Positions 50,066 through 59,070 of a stretch of DNA of 64,000 bases are shown here, piece after piece; position 1 is the first letter of the stretch, and each line of letters opens with the position of its first letter. This DNA is from Candidatus Hydrogenedentota bacterium (GTDB taxonomy: Bacteria; Hydrogenedentota; Hydrogenedentia; Hydrogenedentales; JAEUWI01): contig JAXMOL010000031.1 of assembly GCA_034669905.1 (NCBI GenBank), forward strand, positions 1 through 64,000, given 5' to 3'. A program made the translations under genes and the position numbers. The notes under the pieces were generated by a model that was not told where the DNA came from, searched no databases, and saw nothing but the letters and a program-made list of their open reading frames with translations.

Positions 50066-51097
50066 ATGACCACAACTAAAGTAATTTATAGTCGCAAGGG
50101 CTTTACACTGATAGAGCTCCTGGTTGTTATCGCTATCATCGGCATTCTTGCCGCCATCCTCCTCCCCGCACTGGCGCGCGCACGCGAAGCCGCCCGTCGT
50201 GCGAGTTGCCAGAATAACCTCAAGCAGTGGGGGCTGGTCGTCAAGATGTACGCCAACGAGAGCAGCGGCGAGCGCCTTCCCCGCATGCTGAATCAGGAGT
50301 ACATTCGTGATGACTCCTGCCAGACCCGTCCCGGCCGTCTGCGCGGTGGTATCTGGATGCCCCACGTATACCCTGAGTACATGTCGGACCTCCAACTCAT
50401 TGTGTGCCCTTCCGCCGTTAATGCCAGCGAGCTCCCGGACAAGTGGAATTGCCCCGATGGTGCGTACTGCAACCCGTGCGCCACGCACCCCAACTTCGGC
50501 GGGCTGGAAGTGGGTGCAATTGGTAATGCCGAACAGCAAAGCTATATGTACTACGGCTACCTCATCGATGACGACAGCACCTGGGCGGCCTACCGCAATA
50601 CCATCGCGACCTATGTGGCAGACAACACGGCCAACGGAAGCAGCAAAGTGGTCTACACAGACCCCAGCATCCAGGCCGATGCGGAGATCGTGGACGGAAT
50701 CCTCAACAGTGATTATGACTACACCGACTCCAGCATCGGGGGTCAGGCTGCAGTACAGGCCATCGTGGACGGCGGCATCGCTGCCAGTGGTGTGAGCACG
50801 AGTGTCGTTGTTTCGGGCTCCGCAGGCGGTGACACCATCCTTCGCCTTCGAGAAGGCATCGAGCGCTTCCTCATCACCGACATCAACAACGCGGCAGCGA
50901 GCGCCGAAGGACAGAGCACCATCCCGATCATGTGGGACCGCTTCGTCATCAGCGATCAGTCCAAGTACACGGAGCGCTTCAATCACATCCCGGGTGGCGC
51001 CAATGTCCTCTACCTGGACGGGCACGTCAGCTTTCTCAAGTGGCCCCAGGAAGAATTCCCCCTGACTCCCGTGCACGGAATCTTCGGACGTCTCTAA
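50066..51097 (+). CDS. DUF1559 / prepilin-type N-terminal cleavage-methylation protein with H-X9-DG motif
   Basis: [58 protein letters not shown]. Confidence 0.93.
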
Positions 51098-51987: not shown

Positions 51988-52074
51988 GGGCGAGTGGTGG
52001 AATTGGCAGACACGACGGACTTAAAATCCGTTTCTCGCAAGAGAGTGCGGGTTCGATTCCCGCCTCGCCCACCA
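51988..52074 (+). tRNA. tRNA-Leu (anticodon TAA)
   Basis: GGGCGAG/CTCGCCC acceptor stem plus ACCA; D-loop GGAATTGGCAGAC; ACGGA-CTTAAAA-TCCGT; long variable arm; GCGGG-TTCGATT-CCCGC. Confidence 0.97.
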
Positions 52075-52258: not shown

Positions 52259-52514
52259 GGGAAAACCAAGGGACGGACTACGCATTTTCACCCTTCACCC
52301 CCATCGTTTCTTGGTCTACCTGGCTTCTTCGGACGCATCATCAGGCCCAGTAGTGCTTCAAGCTGGCCACGGAATTATTCCTCGTTCCCATGCTCTGCGG
52401 AATATGGTGCCGAAAGCCCGGCACCACGACTCTGGCCAGTCGGCTCATGGATTCAGCCTATACTGGATGGCAGGATTTCGCACGCTATTCCGTAGTCTGT
52501 CCCTTAGTTCTCCC
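52259..52514 (-). mobile_element. Miniature TIR element, copy 1 (internally deleted RAYT-like Y1 transposase)
   Basis: 24-bp imperfect TIRs (21/24). Minus strand encodes MSRLARVVVPGFRHHI and, in another frame, LEALLGLMMRPKKPGRPRNDGGEG*. Confidence 0.8.
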
Positions 52515-52562
52515 AAATTAACGATTGAAAGAAGTAACGCTGCACTCGATGCTCTAAACTTC

Positions 52563-52946
52563 CTAAGGTCTCTCGTCCTGACGCCGAAGTCTTCCTGTCG
52601 GAGAAAACCCCATTCGGACTCGCAGTTCACGTTTTAAGATTACTAGTCCTTCACGATTAACTCCGAGTCCATGTTCTATCCGGGCGCGATTTTTCTCAGA
52701 GAATGGATAACCAATGAGAACACACCCCAATAGTGATATATATTTAATAACAAGGCTGTCAGGCAATTCAATCTGATCTCTCGCATCCTCAACTAAGAAT
52801 TCACCTAAGGCTAAACTGAGTTCCTCGGGCCAAACCCCCATAATAGCGTGAAACTCATCTCGAATCATGAGACGTTCGCTCTCTACAAACAGGGCTAACG
52901 CGTCCTGGTAGAGCCTCCATTCTTTTTCGCTGAGTTTCGTCGTCAA
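52563..52946 (-). CDS. Probable immunity protein
   Basis: AT-rich 127-aa ORF overlapping the upstream toxin fragment by 4 nt; EFHAIMG...LIGYP pattern. Confidence 0.65.
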   Translation of the reverse strand: MTTKLSEKEWRLYQDALALFVESERLMIRDEFHAIMGVWPEELSLALGEFLVEDARDQIELPDSLVIKYISLLGCVLIGYPFSEKNRARIEHGLGVNREGLVILKRELRVRMGFSPTGRLRRQDERP

Positions 52947-53209
52947 AACAGTTCCTCTAGGTACTCTTCGCCAATACTTGGCCTAAACATCGTCCCCATG
53001 TCTTGGTGGTTTGGATCAAAGAGCACGAGAGTGTTGTCATGTCTTCGATAGAAAAACCTTCTACCTTGATCTAAATCTCCAGCGATGTCGTGACCACCGT
53101 CTTCCATAACGCCTCTCACGTGCTCCATAAAATTTTCACGATTCCCCCAACACGTTTAGAAAAATCCTTTCGATGCTCATTGAATGCATGACCTTTTCCG
53201 ATACTCTCT
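52943..53209 (-). pseudogene. Orphan toxin C-terminal fragment (BECR-like RNase motifs), 5'-truncated and frameshifted
   Basis: ESIGKGHAFNEHRKDF in one frame, then NRENFMEHVRGVM...GRRFFY...TLVLFDPNHQDMGTMFRPSIGEEY in another; begins at the edge of element copy 2. Confidence 0.6.
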
Positions 53210-53346
53210 GAAAACCAAGGGACGGACTACGCATTTTCACCCTTCACCCCCATCGTTTCCTGGTCTACCTGGCTTCTTCGGACGCATCACCAGGCCCAGT
53301 AGTGCTTCAAGCTGGCCACGGAGAACTCAGGGACAGACTACGAATA
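53210..53346. mobile_element. Miniature element copy 2 (partial) fused to an inverted opposite TIR
   Basis: 53210-53322 is nearly identical to 52261-52373. It is followed by GGAGAACTCAGGGACAGACTACGAATA (53320-53346), the other end in inverted orientation. Confidence 0.8.
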
Positions 53347-53364
53347 AAAGTTGGCGCACACCTT

Positions 53365-53618
53365 GAAAACCAAGGGACGGACTACGCATTTTCACCCTTC
53401 ACCCCCATCGTTTCCTGGTCTACCTGGCTTCTTCGGACGCATCACTAGGCCCAGTAGTGTTTGAAGTTGGCCACGGAATTTTACCTCGTTCCCATGCTCT
53501 GCGTAATACGGTGCGGAAAGCCCGGCACCACGACTCTGGCCAGTCGGCTCATGGATTCAGCCTATACTGGATGGCAGGATTTCGCAAGCTATTCCGTAGT
53601 CTGTCCCTTAGTTCTCCC
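53365..53618 (-). mobile_element. Miniature TIR element, copy 3
   Basis: Near-identical to copy 1; minus strand MSRLARVVVPGFPHRITQSMGTR*. Confidence 0.8.
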
Positions 53619-53687
53619 GGAAAGCAACTCCGAAGCAATCAAATCGTCATCTCGCTCTGTAGCATAAAAACTGAATTGTATAGTCAT
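53619..53687 (-). pseudogene. 5' stub of a gene cut off by element copy 3
   Basis: ATG 53687 reads MTIQFSFYATERDDDLIASELLS straight into the TIR; lies 18 nt after the DUF5958-like stop. Confidence 0.45.
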
Positions 53688-53705
53688 TCGTAGTACCTAT
53701 ATCTA

Positions 53706-54185
53706 TCAGGATGGACAGGCTTCATCATCGAATTCCGAAGCTATGTCAGACACTGTTTGAGGATCAGACAGGTCTCTGTGCCACCAGTATCTCGTCGGGT
53801 CCGAACATCGCCCCCGCTGCCTTCTGTTGCCGATACAGAAGAGGCCAAGAAGCAGAAGGTATGATTTCCTTCTTTCGCTTACTGGCAATCCCAGAACATG
53901 ACGAATTTGCGCCCTTAACACAGAACTCCCTTTAGGCTCCTTAACAGCGGCCTTAAGCAAGAGCACGCACGGCGTAAATGTTGGTCGCAGCTCGGACCAA
54001 GCTATCGCGTCTTCAACGTCGCAACCCACTACCCCAGACTGGGCGGTTAGATATGCTAGCTCCTGAATTATTGCAGTCTGAGTTTCGTCGTGCTGAGAAT
54101 CAAACCAATCAATTGCCTCCGCTTTAGACAGGACACATTGCGCGACTTGATTCAAAGTAATATCTATCATGAGAGTCTTCATCAT
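53706..54185 (-). CDS. DUF5958-like protein (probable orphan immunity)
   Basis: LRPTFTPCVLL, LPVSERRKSYLLLLGLF and WWHRDLSD; AGGGA RBS. Confidence 0.7.
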   Translation of the reverse strand: MMKTLMIDITLNQVAQCVLSKAEAIDWFDSQHDETQTAIIQELAYLTAQSGVVGCDVEDAIAWSELRPTFTPCVLLLKAAVKEPKGSSVLRAQIRHVLGLPVSERRKSYLLLLGLFCIGNRRQRGRCSDPTRYWWHRDLSDPQTVSDIASEFDDEACPS

Positions 54186-54216
54186 ATCCCTACATGGTCT
54201 GTCTCTTTGTTCTCCC

Positions 54217-54597
54217 TTAATTAACTTCCTTCACAATTCGATACGAATTGGCGCAGATTGTAAGGCTACTATTTGTTGAGTTGGTGCGAATACGGAACTC
54301 GTGCAATTGGTCAAGCGATTCTAACAAATGCTTCCAGACTCCCCGGACCCTTAACAGATGTTCTGAATCCGTCAGACACTCAGCAGCTAATACACTCTCA
54401 GGCGCTACAATTCCGAAATTCATTCTCGTTTCTAAAAAATAGCAATTCTCGAATACCACGTGATTCTCGCTCCCGTCGGGCCATTCGATGAGCAGTGCTA
54501 CAGTATCATTCTTTCCGGGTGAGGACCGGTCAACTTTCAGAGCAAGCAATATTGCATCGTGCCACGGAAGCGCATTGAACGATTCTTTACATTTCAT
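54217..54597 (-). CDS. Cognate immunity protein of the Rhs toxin
   Basis: Start overlaps the Rhs stop (TAATG); AT-rich; FNALPWHDA motif. Confidence 0.75.
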   Translation of the reverse strand: MKCKESFNALPWHDAILLALKVDRSSPGKNDTVALLIEWPDGSENHVVFENCYFLETRMNFGIVAPESVLAAECLTDSEHLLRVRGVWKHLLESLDQLHEFRIRTNSTNSSLTICANSYRIVKEVN

Positions 54598-55913
54598 TAT
54601 CTGAATCCTGGGTCTGAATCACTTCGTTTAGGGCTAAAGTGTTCTCTACCTCCGTTCAAGTGATAGTGTGAATACTCTGGTCCACTCTTCCCGGTCGGCG
54701 TAGCCGGGTCTATTCTCAATCTCTCAGCAAACTTTCCATCTACAACTTCCCCGTAGCTACCGGGGCGATACGGATTATCAACATAGCTTTCAGGAATACT
54801 ATACTTAGCGTCTGGAAGTAGCGCCACACCTTGAGGTGTAACGTGTATTACATCTGGAACATCTGGCCCCTGCCCGGACCTTGGCGTTCCCGGTCCAGTG
54901 CCCGCGCTGCGACCGCTCGGAAGTATATCGCCAGCTTCGTATGTTCTTCCAGTACCGACGCTCTCGGTCGGCGCTTTGGCAATCACGGGAACTTCGTCAG
55001 CGTGCGTCGTCGCATTGGTGACATTTTCCACCACATCATCACCAATCCGTATGGAATCCGAAATTTCGTCGCCATTCTTCAATGCGGTCCGGCCCGCTTT
55101 GGCCACAAAGTCTCCACCTCGAACAAACTGGCCGGCCCCCGGAATTGCAGAGCCGCCATCGATTAGAGCACCAGTAAAATCTAGCCTCACAACGCTGATC
55201 GCGAAGGAGAGCATGTCCGGAACGATTCCCACGCCTGGCAGCAAACCCGCAGAACCAAGACCCAACTGAAGCCCATCAAGCCAAGCAGCCCAAGATTGAT
55301 TACCACCACAAAGCCCAAACGGGTCGACCACACTCCAGGGGTTACTCGCGGCATAGGTGTAGCCATTGCCCAAGTTCGCCGCATCGCCCCAGAGGCCGAT
55401 GGGGTCGCGGCTTACGAATCGGCCGAGGGCCGGGTCCATGAAGCGGTTGCGGAAGTAGTAGTAGCCCGATTCCGGATCCCAGCGGCGACCGGTGAAGAGG
55501 TAGGGATTTCCGAATGGGGATTCGGACACCTCCAGCAGGGCACCGGTGGCTTGCCCTGGGTTCGCCGGAGGCGAATAGAACTCGGGCTGGCCGTAGTCGC
55601 CGTAATCGTAGGCCTCCACGACGGTACCCGTGTTGTCGGTGAGCTTGACGACGTTGTGTTGGTCGTCGCCGTGATAATAGTAATCCGACGTGCCCCGGCG
55701 CATGGTGAGGACTTCGTCGATATAGTTGCCGTAGACATAGCTCGCGGACAGACTGGCACCCCCGCTGCTGGAGATTTCCCATTCCTCCGCCACGCGAGAA
55801 CCGTCATAGACAAAACGCGTGGCCGTGCCATCGGCATGCCGCTTTTCGATACGGCGGCCCAGGGCGTCGTAGGCGTATTCCGTCGTGAAATGGCCGATGT
55901 TAACATCGTCCAC
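54597..55913 (-). CDS. Orphan, 5'-truncated Rhs core + pre-toxin (PT-TG-like) linker + C-terminal toxin
   Basis: YD repeats (YAYDALGRR, YDYGDYG); core end YYYFRNRFMDPALGRFVSRDPIG...NPWSVVDPFGL; then GLLPGVGIVPD...SAIPGAG and a tip with RIDP...SHYH. GC drops after DPFGL. Confidence 0.88.
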   Translation of the reverse strand: MDDVNIGHFTTEYAYDALGRRIEKRHADGTATRFVYDGSRVAEEWEISSSGGASLSASYVYGNYIDEVLTMRRGTSDYYYHGDDQHNVVKLTDNTGTVVEAYDYGDYGQPEFYSPPANPGQATGALLEVSESPFGNPYLFTGRRWDPESGYYYFRNRFMDPALGRFVSRDPIGLWGDAANLGNGYTYAASNPWSVVDPFGLCGGNQSWAAWLDGLQLGLGSAGLLPGVGIVPDMLSFAISVVRLDFTGALIDGGSAIPGAGQFVRGGDFVAKAGRTALKNGDEISDSIRIGDDVVENVTNATTHADEVPVIAKAPTESVGTGRTYEAGDILPSGRSAGTGPGTPRSGQGPDVPDVIHVTPQGVALLPDAKYSIPESYVDNPYRPGSYGEVVDGKFAERLRIDPATPTGKSGPEYSHYHLNGGREHFSPKRSDSDPGFR

Positions 55914-56320
55914 ATAACAGTCGCCCGTGGTCTCAAGGATGAGGGGCCAAGGGAGAGCGTCGGTGTCTCCGCATGGTTGGGGTTGCTAAGCCTACGGCCG
56001 CCGGGACAGGAACGCGCGTTGGCGAGCGTTCCCACAGGGACTGCCTTCGCGCTGAAGGGTGCGTCGGGTAGCGAGTGGCCGGGGATGTAACGGCCCGTTC
56101 AACGGATGAATGGCAATCGTAGATGCGCGAGGCTGTCCCGGCAGTATGGGGAGACGGGATGTTGGGTAGGCTCTCCCCCTTTCTTGGGTCCGGTGCGGTT
56201 GTTTTCTCCCGTGCCCTTTGCCTCGGACAGGTTGAAAACGCGCCGTGGCGGCAGTGTCCAAGCTCCTTGTTCAGGGAGACGCCGGGGAATCGAAGTCATT
56301 TTGCCCATCCCTACCATTAT

Positions 56321-56650: not shown

Positions 56651-58027
56651 ATGAGCTTCTCCCGTTTCTTTTCTTCGGCGTATCGCGGTCTTTTCCCGGT
56701 GCTGGTCGCTGTCGTGGGGACGACGTCCATTTTCCCCGTGGCGAACGCATCCCCGTCAGCCGCCGAGCAGCGCACCAAGCCCCGGGTTATCGTCACCACG
56801 GACGGAGAGACAGACGACCGGTGTTCCATGAACCGCTTCCTCCTCTACACCAATGAGGTGGAGGTCCTGGGCCTTATCCACTCCAGTTCCAAGCACCATT
56901 GGAAGGGAGACCGCGAACACGCCCCCAAGAAATGGGAACCGGTGGTCTGGCTGGATGAAATGCTGGACAACTACGCGGCCGTCTACCCCAACCTGCGCCT
57001 CCACGAGGATGACTACCCCACCCCCGACTACTTGCGCGAACAGGTCTTCGTGGGCAACATCGCCTATGAAGGGGAAATGACCCTGGAAACCCCCGGCTCC
57101 AATCGCATTGTGGAGGTCCTACTCGACGAAAACCCGGCCCCCGTGTGGCTCCAGGCCTGGGGCGGTCCGAACACCATCGCCCGCGCCTTGAAGACCATCG
57201 AAGCAAAGCATCCGGAAAAAATGGCGGCCGTCGCGAAGAAGGCGCGCATCTTTCTCATCTCCGAGCAGGACAAAACCTACAAATCCTACATTCGCGGTGC
57301 GTGGCCCACGATTCAAGTGATACGCAGTGGCTATGAATCCTACGGGATCATCGCCTACCGGTGGGACCAACAACAGTCGGCCGAGGTCCAGCCCTATTTC
57401 GAGACGGAATGGATGGGCACCCACATCACCTCCGGGCATGGTCCCCTCTGCGCGGCCTATGAGACCAGGAAAGGCCGCTTTCGTTCTGAGGGGGACTCCC
57501 CCGCCTTTCTCCATGTCCTTCACACCGGCCTGCGCAGCGAGGAAGATCCGCGTTATGGGGGCTGGGGCGGCCGTTTCGCCTTCAGCAACGGCATGTGGCG
57601 CTCGGTGGACGAAGCCAACTCGGACCCCCACAGCATTGGCCGCTGGGCCATCGAATTTCAGAATGACTGGGCCGCCCGGGCCGACTGGTGCGTAGCGCCC
57701 GTCGAAGAAGCCAATCACCATCCCGTCATCGCCCTGTCCGGCCCCCTGGACCGGAGCGTCAAGGCGGGTGACGCCATCACGCTCGATGCCCACGGCACGA
57801 CGGACCCGGATGGCAATGGGCTGACCTTCCAATGGTGGCACTACGCGGAAGCCTCGACCTACACCCAAGCCGTTTCCCTGAATACGCCCACGTCGGCCAC
57901 GACAACCGTCACCATACCCGACGACGCCGTCCCGGGCGACACCATCCATATCGTTTGCACCGTGCGCGACGACGGCACGCCTCCCCTTGCCCGTCACGCC
58001 CGCCACCTGTTCACCGTATCCAAGTAA
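56651..58027 (+). CDS. Secreted DUF1593 nucleoside-hydrolase-like protein with C-terminal Ig-like domain
   Basis: RVIVTTDGETDD, WGGPNT, SEGDSPAFL, GGWGGRF and FQNDWAARADW. Confidence 0.88.
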   Translation: MSFSRFFSSAYRGLFPVLVAVVGTTSIFPVANASPSAAEQRTKPRVIVTTDGETDDRCSMNRFLLYTNEVEVLGLIHSSSKHHWKGDREHAPKKWEPVVWLDEMLDNYAAVYPNLRLHEDDYPTPDYLREQVFVGNIAYEGEMTLETPGSNRIVEVLLDENPAPVWLQAWGGPNTIARALKTIEAKHPEKMAAVAKKARIFLISEQDKTYKSYIRGAWPTIQVIRSGYESYGIIAYRWDQQQSAEVQPYFETEWMGTHITSGHGPLCAAYETRKGRFRSEGDSPAFLHVLHTGLRSEEDPRYGGWGGRFAFSNGMWRSVDEANSDPHSIGRWAIEFQNDWAARADWCVAPVEEANHHPVIALSGPLDRSVKAGDAITLDAHGTTDPDGNGLTFQWWHYAEASTYTQAVSLNTPTSATTTVTIPDDAVPGDTIHIVCTVRDDGTPPLARHARHLFTVSK

Positions 58028-58047
58028 GACCAACCTGAGGAACCCCC

Positions 58048-59070
58048 ATGCTGTCCCTACTTATCGCTGGAATCGCCGGACTGGGCGTCATTGAAAACGC
58101 CCCGGAACCCATCCCGCCCCTTCCCATCATCTACGACACCGACATGGGCAATGACGTGGACGACGGGTATGCCCTGGGCATGATCCACGCCCTCGCCTCC
58201 CGGGGCGAATGTGAACTGCTGGCCGTCACCGTCACCAAAGACCACGAGCTGGCCGGACCCTTTGTGGATGTGCTGAACACCTTCTATGGCCACGGCGACA
58301 TCCCCATCGGCGTGGTGCGTAACGGTCCCGAACCCCACGAAGGCAAGTTTCTGGGCCTGGCCGCCGAAAAGCAGGGGGACGCCTATCGCTATCCCCACGA
58401 CCTCCTTTCCGGTAAGGACGCGCCCGACGCCACCACCCTCCTGCGCAAGACGCTGGCGTCCCAGGCAGACGGCTCCGTGGTCATCGTGCAGGTAGGCTTC
58501 TCCACCAATCTCGCCCGTCTCCTGGATAGCCCGGCAGACGACATCTCTCCCCTCACCGGTCGGGAGCTGGCCGAAAAGAAGGTCAAGGTCATCTCGGTCA
58601 TGGCCGGTGCCTTCGAGCCCCACAACGACAAGCCCCATCGAGAATACAATGTGGCCCTCGACGTGCCCGCAGCCCAGCGCCTCACTACCGACTGGCCCAC
58701 ACCCATTATCTACAGTGGCTTTGAAGTGGGCCTCAAGACCCGCCTGCCCAAGGAGGCCATCATGCACGACTTCGACTACGTGCCCGACCACCCCATGGCC
58801 GCAGCCAACCGCTTGTACAACAACAAATACAATAGCCAGCCCTCCTGGGACCTGACCAGCGTCTTGTGGGCCGTGCGCCCCGACCGGGGATATTTTGGTC
58901 TCTCCGAGAAGGGGCGTGTATCCTACGATGCGCAAGGCTTTACGACCTGGACGCCCGACCCCGAAGGCACCCACCAGTATCTCACGGTGGATGCCCTGCA
59001 GGCGGAGCGGGTGAAAGAAAACATGACGACACTGGCCAGTGAAGCGCCCCACTGCGCAACACAACGATAG
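58048..59070 (+). CDS. Inosine-uridine-preferring nucleoside hydrolase family protein
   Basis: IIYDTDMGNDVDD, VMAG, EYNV and SWDL. Confidence 0.88.
   Translation: MLSLLIAGIAGLGVIENAPEPIPPLPIIYDTDMGNDVDDGYALGMIHALASRGECELLAVTVTKDHELAGPFVDVLNTFYGHGDIPIGVVRNGPEPHEGKFLGLAAEKQGDAYRYPHDLLSGKDAPDATTLLRKTLASQADGSVVIVQVGFSTNLARLLDSPADDISPLTGRELAEKKVKVISVMAGAFEPHNDKPHREYNVALDVPAAQRLTTDWPTPIIYSGFEVGLKTRLPKEAIMHDFDYVPDHPMAAANRLYNNKYNSQPSWDLTSVLWAVRPDRGYFGLSEKGRVSYDAQGFTTWTPDPEGTHQYLTVDALQAERVKENMTTLASEAPHCATQR

What the first reader, a model, noticed from the sequence alone, without database searches (positions are those of the whole stretch)
52259..55913. Rhs toxin/immunity array punctuated by co-oriented miniature RAYT-like elements: candidate cassette-shuffling system
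Seen, reading the minus strand: orphan Rhs core+toxin, immunity, DUF5958-like gene, gene stub, element 3, inverted TIR/partial element 2, toxin-tip fragment, immunity, element 1, tRNA-Leu. All element copies share the orientation of the toxin genes, and no copy was noticed elsewhere in the 64 kb. Their ends coincide with gene breakpoints: the stub ends at 53619 and the toxin fragment starts at 53209. Established: Rhs loci accumulate orphan CT/immunity pairs, usually explained by recombination between core repeats. Inference: here a TIR-bearing Y1/HUH-transposase element may capture, delimit or delete toxin/immunity cassettes, giving an integron-like array driven in trans by an autonomous transposase.
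Basis: partly seen in the sequence, partly recalled or inferred. Interest (0 to 1): 0.85.

Follow-up and report, generated by a model that had tools for sequence, protein, structure and literature searches.

The report
Transposon ends splicing toxin-immunity arrays
Shrunken copies of a little-studied tyrosine-transposase element sit between the modules of a predicted bacterial toxin/immunity array, and in relatives the same element ends mark the exact points where such modules differ, so the enzyme likely helps bacteria swap these predicted weapons and defences.

Summary
The repeats are 252-bp internally deleted TIRtrons (HUH/Y1 'TIRYT' transposase elements, Di Nocera 2013), not REP-type RAYTs. 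Their ends lie 9 nt outside a GGGAC core and cut the flanking gene stub and toxin tip.

Evidence for a link to Rhs arrays:
- All 3 Rhs-core loci of this genome carry these ends.
- In a same-genus genome, homology at two orthologous loci stops exactly at the ends, around different cargo.
- In a blind test, 14 of 40 Rhs loci of relatives carried such an end, against 2 of 40 control windows.
- An Acidobacteriota contig has three intact elements alternating with Rhs modules.

Evidence against a dedicated integron:
- 72 of 78 intact elements have no Rhs core nearby.
- Enrichment over other transposases is only about 3.6-fold.
- Cut points are imprecise.
- No intact cognate transposase was found in this assembly.
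- No circles were shown.

Best reading: TIRYT end-joining supplies the non-homologous junction that, with core recombination, turns over toxin/immunity modules. The scan had noted TIRtrons on other DNA, but no Rhs link. I found none in print either; prochlorosins are the nearest precedent. Catalysis is untested.

The parts
55944..56270 (-). Dispersed repeat of a second family. Parts of it flank the intact Y1 gene on contig C30. Its end abuts the 5' cut of the orphan Rhs gene.
   Evidence: homology to the C24 Rhs cores begins at 55942
54597..55941 (-). Orphan Rhs module: core end (87-88% DNA identity to two C24 cores) plus predicted C-terminal toxin; ORF 54597-55913, 438 aa
   Evidence: TIGR03696 61.8 bits; RHS_repeat; the tip is found at the end of 13 other proteins, several Rhs-labelled; GC 0.61 core, 0.54 tip
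54217..54597 (-). Predicted immunity gene A, 126 aa; its start overlaps the toxin stop codon
   Evidence: Position and GC 0.45; no Pfam or NCBIfam family; unnamed Atlas clusters at 0.93-0.95. Function inferred.
53706..54185 (-). DUF5958 gene, 159 aa, possibly an orphan immunity gene (inferred)
   Evidence: PF19383, E 9.6e-27
53617..53687 (-). Gene stub cut at the left end of element 3; its stop codon lies inside the TIR
   Evidence: no homolog among the sequences held
53365..53616 (-). Miniature TIRtron, element 3: left TIR, first ~18 transposase codons, REP remnant, last ~25 codons, right TIR
53485..53503 (-). REP remnant at the internal deletion junction of element 3
   Evidence: Matches a REP-like family with 26 sites in the genome; same junction in three G007 copies
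53321..53364 (+). 44-bp end of a sister element (the 'AATAAA' end type also at C11 and C91), trapped between element 3 and element 2
53210..53320 (-). Element 2: 3' half of a miniature, cut internally where the sister end was joined
52943..53209 (-). Orphan predicted toxin-tip fragment; begins at the element 2 end and has a frameshift near 53150
   Evidence: 41 hits, among them the C-termini of HINT, Rhs and TPS proteins
52563..52946 (-). Predicted immunity gene B, 127 aa; its start overlaps the tip stop codon
   Evidence: Position and GC 0.46; no family. Function inferred.
52261..52512 (-). Miniature TIRtron, element 1 (REP remnant at 52381-52399); left end 51 bp after the immunity B stop
51988..52074 (+). 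tRNA-Leu(TAA) next to the island; the orthologous G007 locus lacks the Rhs module and miniatures

Best explanation
The repeats are non-autonomous, internally deleted TIRtrons whose ends, likely cut and rejoined by a TIRYT (HUH/Y1) transposase acting in trans about 9 nt outside the GGGAC core, coincide with the junctions of the Rhs toxin/immunity modules and likely supply the non-homologous second junction when modules are gained, swapped or trimmed.

Shown: the identity of the element, the position of its ends, the absence of target-site duplications, ends that cut genes, cargo replacement exactly at the ends between genomes, and enrichment at Rhs loci.

Inferred: an incoming toxin-immunity module recombines by homology at the Rhs core, and a resident TIR end is joined to the incoming DNA somewhere after the immunity gene. 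This would leave truncated stubs such as the one at 53617-53687. The same ends also attack neighbouring DNA, giving adjacent deletions and short duplications such as element 2. Selection for intact immunity genes would then explain why ends pile up just after them. The activity is opportunistic and general; it is not confined to Rhs.
For: Ends. Left/right identity falls to background 10 nt outside the core in 120 elements, with no target-site duplication. Local ends stop at position 9.

Ortholog swap. C3 versus G007:C647 share the miniature (93%) and the far flank (95%), but hold 5.5 kb versus 0.8 kb of unrelated cargo, with both breaks at TIR ends. C11 versus G007:C517 homology starts at the TIR end.

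Joins to nearby sequence. TIR ends are joined at position 8-10 to copies of nearby sequence at C3, C29, G007:C8, G007:C279 and in window element 2.

Enrichment. 3 of 3 TIGR03696 loci in this genome carry these ends. Blind test: 14 of 40 Rhs loci versus 2 of 40 control windows, p=0.0007; 10 versus 2 at the strictest score, p=0.013. In 11 of 11 loci at score 16 or more the TIR reads on the Rhs strand.

Repeated units. TIR-plus-core units repeat with 86-95% identity inside and 37-52% outside the end.

Intact elements. 6 of 78 lie near an Rhs core versus 0.68 expected; 9 of 80 in metagenomes. L129 has three 96-98% identical intact elements alternating with Rhs modules.
Against: 72 of 78 intact elements have no Rhs core within 8 kb, and their neighbours are mostly housekeeping genes.

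Against other transposases in the same 46 genomes the excess is modest: 10 of 105, versus 2 of 59 other Y1 (p=0.13) and 2 of 93 IS110 (p=0.03); pooled p=0.018. Seven of the 10 loci are from Acidobacteriota-labelled genomes.

The blind-test controls were arbitrary chromosome windows, not other variable islands. 26 of 40 Rhs loci had no detectable end, and none had a transposase remnant. Hits at score 16 or more came from 7 of 17 related genomes, which are not independent.

No intact cognate transposase was found in this 95.7%-complete assembly. No biochemical or read-level evidence of activity exists.
Confidence: 0.6

Rival explanations
1. Passive debris. TIRtrons insert at random, survive in dispensable islands beside tRNA genes and Rhs arrays, and are copied along with orphan modules by homologous recombination. 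The ends take no active part in module turnover.
For: Most intact elements lie among housekeeping genes. IS200 copies also sit next to Rhs cores (2 of 59; L066). Cognate ends occur at three non-Rhs loci here and beside HEPN, Fic and peptidase genes in G005. TIR-plus-core units look duplicated as blocks.
Against: Homology between orthologs breaks at the TIR ends to within a base, on both sides at one locus. Duplicated TIR-core units have unrelated DNA immediately outside the end, so each outer junction was made anew. Solo ends read on the Rhs strand in 11 of 11 loci.
Confidence: 0.26
2. Dedicated integron-like system. Outward-facing TIR pairs define toxin/immunity cassettes that a domesticated TIRYT excises as circles and reinserts at TIR sites.
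For: Ends punctuate successive modules in L262, L265, L266 and L129. Cargo between two outward ends is wholly replaced at C3/C647. At G007:C8 a TIR end is joined to a 98% copy of an upstream site, as a circle junction would be. At C29 one segment is duplicated at two TIR ends.
Against: Outer junctions are imprecise: 15-112 bp after a stop codon in most array modules, but sometimes inside genes. No TIR-to-TIR cassette joint was seen. Whole elements show no strand bias near Rhs (8 of 15). Most elements are elsewhere, and the enzyme gene is not fixed beside the arrays.
Confidence: 0.12
3. Assembly artefact: the repeats were duplicated or misjoined by the assembler.
For: Short-read metagenome assembly; no contig or read spans the whole array; one unitig is an el1/el3 hybrid.
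Against: The copies differ at 12 of 252 positions. Three junctions are bridged by error-free unitigs. The same miniature and the same layout occur in other genomes.
Confidence: 0.02

Closest known systems
TIRtrons / TIRYT (Di Nocera et al. 2013, PMC3733652; seen: passages and section 16)
   Same: RAYT-like Y1 gene between non-palindromic terminal inverted repeats with a GGGGWSAS-type motif; solo and clustered TIR copies elsewhere in the genome.
   Different: That paper's main text has no 'Rhs' or 'toxin'. It places no cut site and describes no role in cargo exchange. The local TIR has A at the first motif position.
TnpA-Y1 subclass 2.1 / RAYT group 1 (Quentin et al. 2018, PMC6006769, passages and section 20; Bertels et al. 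2017, PMC5581495, passages)
   Same: Long RAYT-like protein with a C-terminal extension, inverted repeats instead of REP hairpins, and several copies per genome.
   Different: No Pfam HTH domain was detected in 6 of 6 proteins, so the exact subgroup is unassigned. Neither main text mentions Rhs.
Prochlorosin-TnpA-REP association in picocyanobacteria (Laurenceau et al., bioRxiv 10.1101/2020.03.09.984088; whole text read)
   Same: Subclass 2.1 transposase genes and fragments interspersed with genes that have a constant N-terminus and a variable C-terminus; a diversifying role was proposed.
   Different: They found no inverted repeats and no junction evidence, and added a note that causality is unresolved. 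Here the TIR ends are the breakpoints and the cargo is toxin-immunity modules.
Orphan Rhs toxin/immunity arrays renewed by recombination; polyimmunity loci beside XerC/D recombinases (Zhang et al. 2012, PMC3482391; passages)
   Same: Toxin-immunity order, orphan core repeats, displaced tips and strings of immunity genes.
   Different: The junction after the immunity gene is here marked by a HUH-transposase end, not by a second core repeat or a tyrosine-recombinase site.
Integrons, and IS91/ISCR one-ended transposition (recalled, from no call)
   Same: Arrays of small accessory modules punctuated by a repeated site (integrons); a HUH enzyme moving DNA next to one end (ISCR).
   Different: No integrase, no hairpin attC-type site and no precise cassette limits. 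The enzyme is a Y1 of the IS200/RAYT fold with two equivalent ends.

Membership tests
TIRtron / TIRYT | Y1 transposase with HUH motif and catalytic tyrosine (in the full-length parent) | tested here: met
   H60, H62 and Y119 invariant in 6 of 6; Y1_Tnp in 6 of 6; best fold match 4ER8, E 8.5e-9
TIRtron / TIRYT | Gene flanked by terminal inverted repeats with a GGGGWSAS-like motif | tested here: met
   AGGGACAG core at both ends of the miniatures and of intact relatives; paired TIRs in 120 elements
TIRtron / TIRYT | Window repeats derive from such an element | tested here: met
   Miniature 5' part 75-77% and 3' part 67-68% identical to the ends of the intact G005 element; 80-82% to the C11 left end
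TnpA-Y1 subclass 2.1 | C-terminal helix-turn-helix domain (Bac_DnaA_C, HTH_23, HTH_28) | tested here: inconclusive
   No Pfam HTH hit at E<=1 in 6 proteins; the model has three C-terminal helices at residues 166-206
REPtron / RAYT-REP | Transposase flanked by palindromic REP hairpins; NF047646 above cut-off | tested here: not met
   Ends are non-palindromic TIRs; 71.3 bits against a cut-off of 80. A REP remnant lies only inside the miniature.
MITE (non-autonomous TIR element) | Short TIR-bounded unit without coding capacity, in several copies | tested here: met
   252 bp with broken frames; 2.5 copies here and three in G007 with the same internal junction
MITE (non-autonomous TIR element) | Target-site duplication | tested here: not met
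   None in the window; no excess over shuffled pairs in 120 intact elements at end offsets 5-13
Integron | Tyrosine-recombinase integrase and precise att-bounded cassettes | tested here: not met
   No integrase among the ORFs of the island; outer junctions vary and cut genes
Integron | Circular cassette intermediates | not testable with these tools
   Only contigs were available; no TIR joint was listed
Orphan Rhs toxin/immunity array | Truncated Rhs core with variable C-terminal tip followed by a small coupled gene | tested here: met
Orphan Rhs toxin/immunity array | Toxicity of the tips and neutralisation by the downstream genes | not testable with these tools
   No family match for either small gene

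The most novel reading that the evidence does not exclude
TIRYT transposases and their solo ends form a widespread, unrecognised capture system for interbacterial toxin and immunity genes. One TIR end fused to an Rhs core repeat acts as a reusable landing pad, which the enzyme joins to incoming DNA so that arrays grow module by module. That would be a HUH-driven counterpart of integrons, present at about a third of Rhs loci in this order and recurring in Acidobacteriota.
Probability: 0.27. Interest if true: 0.85.

Novelty: new variant of a known kind. Interest (0 to 1): 0.62.

Why it matters
Two open questions meet here. First, TIRYT/RAYT group 1 transposases have no known activity or role; this work places their likely cut site (7-9 nt outside the GGGAC core, no target duplication) and supplies natural substrates and products. 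Second, swapping an Rhs toxin-immunity module needs a second junction behind the immunity gene, where incoming DNA may share no homology; a transposase-made join would supply it. The claim can be tested directly with a 229-aa enzyme and 25-nt oligonucleotides. A HUH enzyme that joins either strand of a non-hairpin end without duplicating the target would also be mechanistically unusual.

Tried and rejected
Target-site duplication. One 5-bp match at L129 suggested it, but 120 elements showed no excess over shuffled pairs. Rejected.

A fixed target dinucleotide (TC). Seen at two of five junctions with a known parent, one shared base at two, none at one. Not established.

An intact cognate transposase in this genome. 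The four intact TIRYT-like genes (C25, C30, C54, C58) carry other ends; the cognate C11 copy is interrupted. Not found in this assembly.

Circles or strain variants in reads. Only contigs from one study were available. An el1/el3 hybrid unitig in run X2 could be graph collapse across 72 identical bases, so it was not used. No RNA holder was listed.

Promoter/terminator scan. Counts no higher than shuffles. The fold of the miniature had no control and was not used.

Transposase remnants at the 40 blind Rhs loci. The profile search found none.

A recalled statement that Aravind-group papers link Y1 transposases to toxin loci. Not found in PMC3482391 (first 300,000 characters) or PMC3113570.

The one paper holding both 'RAYT' and 'Rhs' treats them separately.

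Atlas and family searches did not name the two predicted immunity genes. Of the array genes in relatives, few had a family.

No complex prediction was run.
Full report
OBSERVATION. The minus strand carries, in order, an orphan Rhs gene (54597-55913), a 126-aa gene, a DUF5958 gene, a 26-codon stub, element 3, an inverted end, half an element, a toxin-tip fragment, a 127-aa gene, element 1 and, on the plus strand, tRNA-Leu. Elements 1 (52261-52512) and 3 (53365-53616) differ at 12 of 252 nt; element 2 (53210-53320) is their 3' half. The small genes have GC 0.44-0.50 against 0.59 for the genome. The Rhs tip recurs at the end of 13 other proteins, several labelled Rhs. The fragment at 52943-53209 matches 41 proteins, among them the C-termini of HINT, Rhs and TPS proteins (13 of the 41 were scanned). 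Toxin and immunity functions are inferred from this context. Contigs of four runs from one study bridge three junctions without mismatch, but none spans the array.

HOST. The genome is 7.44 Mb in 102 contigs, 95.7% complete. The two closest transposases among named genomes are labelled Hydrogenedentota, as is an earlier scan note on this genome, so that phylum is likely.

WHAT THE ELEMENT IS. Each miniature holds a left TIR, the first ~18 codons of a Y1 transposase, a 19-nt remnant of a REP-like repeat (26 sites in the genome), the last ~25 codons and a right TIR. Intact parents with the same TIR occur in relatives, for example P0001 in G005. They have invariant H60, H62 and Y119, match Y1_Tnp, and fold closest to E. 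coli TnpA-REP, 4ER8, but score below the REP-RAYT cut-off. This is the TIRtron/TIRYT class of Di Nocera et al. (PMC3733652), equated with subclass 2.1 by Quentin et al. (PMC6006769). The C-terminal HTH of that subclass was not detected. In this genome the only long cognate copy (C11) is interrupted by an insertion of about 90 bp, and four intact TIRYT-like genes carry other ends. The same miniature, with the same internal junction, occurs three times in G007 at 77-86% identity, each time among Rhs remnants. It is therefore an old unit that spreads as such.

WHERE THE ENDS ARE. In 69 local ends, conservation stops 9-10 nt outside the core. In 120 intact elements from many phyla, left/right identity falls from 0.72 at position 6 to 0.45 at position 9 and to background at 10, and target-site duplications are no more frequent than in shuffled pairs. 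In the window these ends cut the stub and the tip. Element 3's right end is joined 44 bp inside a sister end, which is itself joined into the middle of another miniature. That looks like two successive end-to-neighbour joins (inference). The orphan Rhs gene's 5' cut abuts a repeat of a second family.

ENDS ARE BREAKPOINTS BETWEEN GENOMES. G007 belongs to the same genus. At C3 versus C647 the miniature (93%) and the far flank (95%) are shared, while 5.5 kb (with an Rhs module) versus 0.8 kb of unrelated DNA lies between two outward-facing ends; both breaks fall at the ends. At C11 versus C517, 5.6 kb of homology starts at the TIR end. At C19 versus C635, G007 has another toxin tip, a miniature and the displaced URI2 tip, though that last junction is a REP remnant. 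G007's tRNA-Leu locus lacks the window's Rhs module and miniatures. TIR ends are also joined at position 8-10 to copies of nearby sequence at five places, including a 98% copy of the 3' part of a large conserved gene (valS-like by my recall) at G007:C8.

ENRICHMENT, FOR. All 3 TIGR03696 loci of this genome carry cognate ends, although non-Rhs TIR loci plus 5 kb cover 0.44% of it. A fourth, tail-only locus (C19) has none. Of 78 intact elements from named genomes, 6 have an Rhs core within 8 kb against 0.68 expected (simulated p 3e-5); 9 of 80 metagenome loci do, two of them weakly. For a blind test I trained a weight matrix on 220 ends from other phyla. Result: 14 versus 2 at score 14, 11 versus 2 at 16, 10 versus 2 at 18 (p 0.0007 and 0.013 at scores 14 and 18). 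In all 11 loci at score 16 or more the TIR reads on the Rhs strand. In L262, L265 and L266 an end follows successive modules and is usually fused on its inner side to the next core repeat. Three such unit pairs are 86-95% alike inside the end and 37-52% outside. L129, labelled Acidobacteriota, has three intact co-oriented elements, 96-98% identical, alternating with Rhs modules, one with an HNH tip.

ENRICHMENT, AGAINST. 72 of 78 intact elements have no Rhs core nearby, and the 250 nearest ORFs are mostly housekeeping or unnamed. In the 46 Rhs-bearing genomes, 10 of 105 TIRYT loci lie within 5 kb of a core, against 2 of 59 other Y1 loci (p 0.13) and 2 of 93 IS110 loci (p 0.03); pooled p 0.018. 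The TIRYT set was the top 116 rows of the 150 listed out of 270 matches, and 7 of the 10 loci come from Acidobacteriota-labelled genomes. Only 8 of 15 Rhs-proximal intact elements share the Rhs strand. 26 of 40 blind Rhs loci had no end, hits at score 16 or more came from 7 genomes, and the controls were not other islands. Cognate ends also flank non-Rhs accessory genes. Outer junctions are imprecise: 15-112 bp after a stop codon in most array modules, but inside the gene in L232, L240, L245 and the window's stub.

MECHANISM. Shown: ends at a measured distance from the core, no duplication, joins to unrelated or nearby DNA, and breakpoints at ends. From established HUH chemistry (recalled), cleavage leaves a 3'-OH on one side and a 5'-phosphotyrosine on the other, so each TIR could donate its 3' end on the GTCCC strand. 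I infer that a TIRYT acting in trans joins a resident end to DNA behind an incoming immunity gene while homologous recombination fixes the core side, and that the same reaction on neighbouring DNA trims and duplicates modules. Selection for intact immunity genes would concentrate surviving joins just behind them. I give this 0.6, passive debris 0.26, a precise circle-based cassette system 0.12, and artefact 0.02.

WHAT IS KNOWN. 'TIRYT' occurs in two distinct works of the library, and neither main text has 'Rhs'; nor does Bertels et al. 2017 (passages). Searches listed no paper linking this family to Rhs or immunity arrays (listings only, except where named); subscription journals and supplements were not covered. 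Zhang et al. 2012 explain module exchange by recombination and note XerC/D genes beside polyimmunity loci (passages). The nearest precedent is Laurenceau et al. (whole text): subclass 2.1 genes beside prochlorosin genes, with no inverted repeats found and causality left open. Earlier scan notes describe TIRtrons in three other genomes; none of the notes returned by the two word look-ups ties TIRYT to Rhs.

VERDICT. A real feature made of two known parts, TIRtrons and orphan Rhs arrays, with a link between them that I could not find described and that rests on base-precise junctions and a blind enrichment test. It works like a loose, one-ended capture device rather than an integron. New variant of a known kind; interest 0.62.

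Noticed in passing
G000:C11:135979-136069 (L002:7980-8070): The cognate transposase gene is interrupted by a ~90-bp repeat with its own GGGACAG-type ends. G004:C363 has it at the same site, and it is dispersed in G005, G016, G034 and G051.
   Followed up: partly
window 55944-56270: A long composite repeat of a second family, with parts on about 15 contigs and on both sides of the intact C30 Y1 gene. Its end abuts the 5' cut of the orphan Rhs gene, and G007 has two copies at the orthologous tRNA-Leu locus.
   Followed up: partly
L034:1-10201 (G005:C23): An intact TIRtron followed by three pairs of a gene fragment (two with InlB B-repeat domains) and a lower-GC or signal-peptide-like gene, punctuated by TIRs and closed by a second element start. 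This looks like a non-Rhs array of the same build.
   Followed up: no
L004:6596-9627 (G000:C29): A 159-bp segment is duplicated, one copy starting at a TIR end and the other ending near another, as if a gene had been circularly permuted around the ends.
   Followed up: partly
L136, L101, L105, L147, L285: Single small genes without a Pfam family (SdpI in L285) lie between consecutive TIR ends; they may be orphan immunity genes captured alone.
   Followed up: partly
L003:14077-15763 (G000:C24): A phage-type integrase and an HTH_17 gene lie just upstream of the three-module Rhs array whose far end carries a REP doublet and a TIRtron right end.
   Followed up: no
G000:C11:136432-136520; L034:751-830; L115; L129:10000-10100: TIR ends are often followed by tandem partial copies of themselves, as if the end had been joined repeatedly into its own sequence.
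   Followed up: partly
L007:4900-5900 (G000:C2), L044:179-599: A second miniature type with a different interior, including tandem partial copies on C2 and one beside an Rhs module in G007.
   Followed up: no
window 56651-59070: Next to the island lie a Sde182-type nucleoside-hydrolase-like gene and an inosine-uridine nucleoside hydrolase gene; the gene at 50066-51097 is a prepilin-type DUF1559 protein. Ordinary for this genome.
   Followed up: no
L066:7658-10200 (G025): In a single-contig genome, a full-length Rhs gene is followed by a DDE_3 transposase, an IS200 gene, a low-GC gene and the genome's only match to the cognate TIR pattern.
   Followed up: partly
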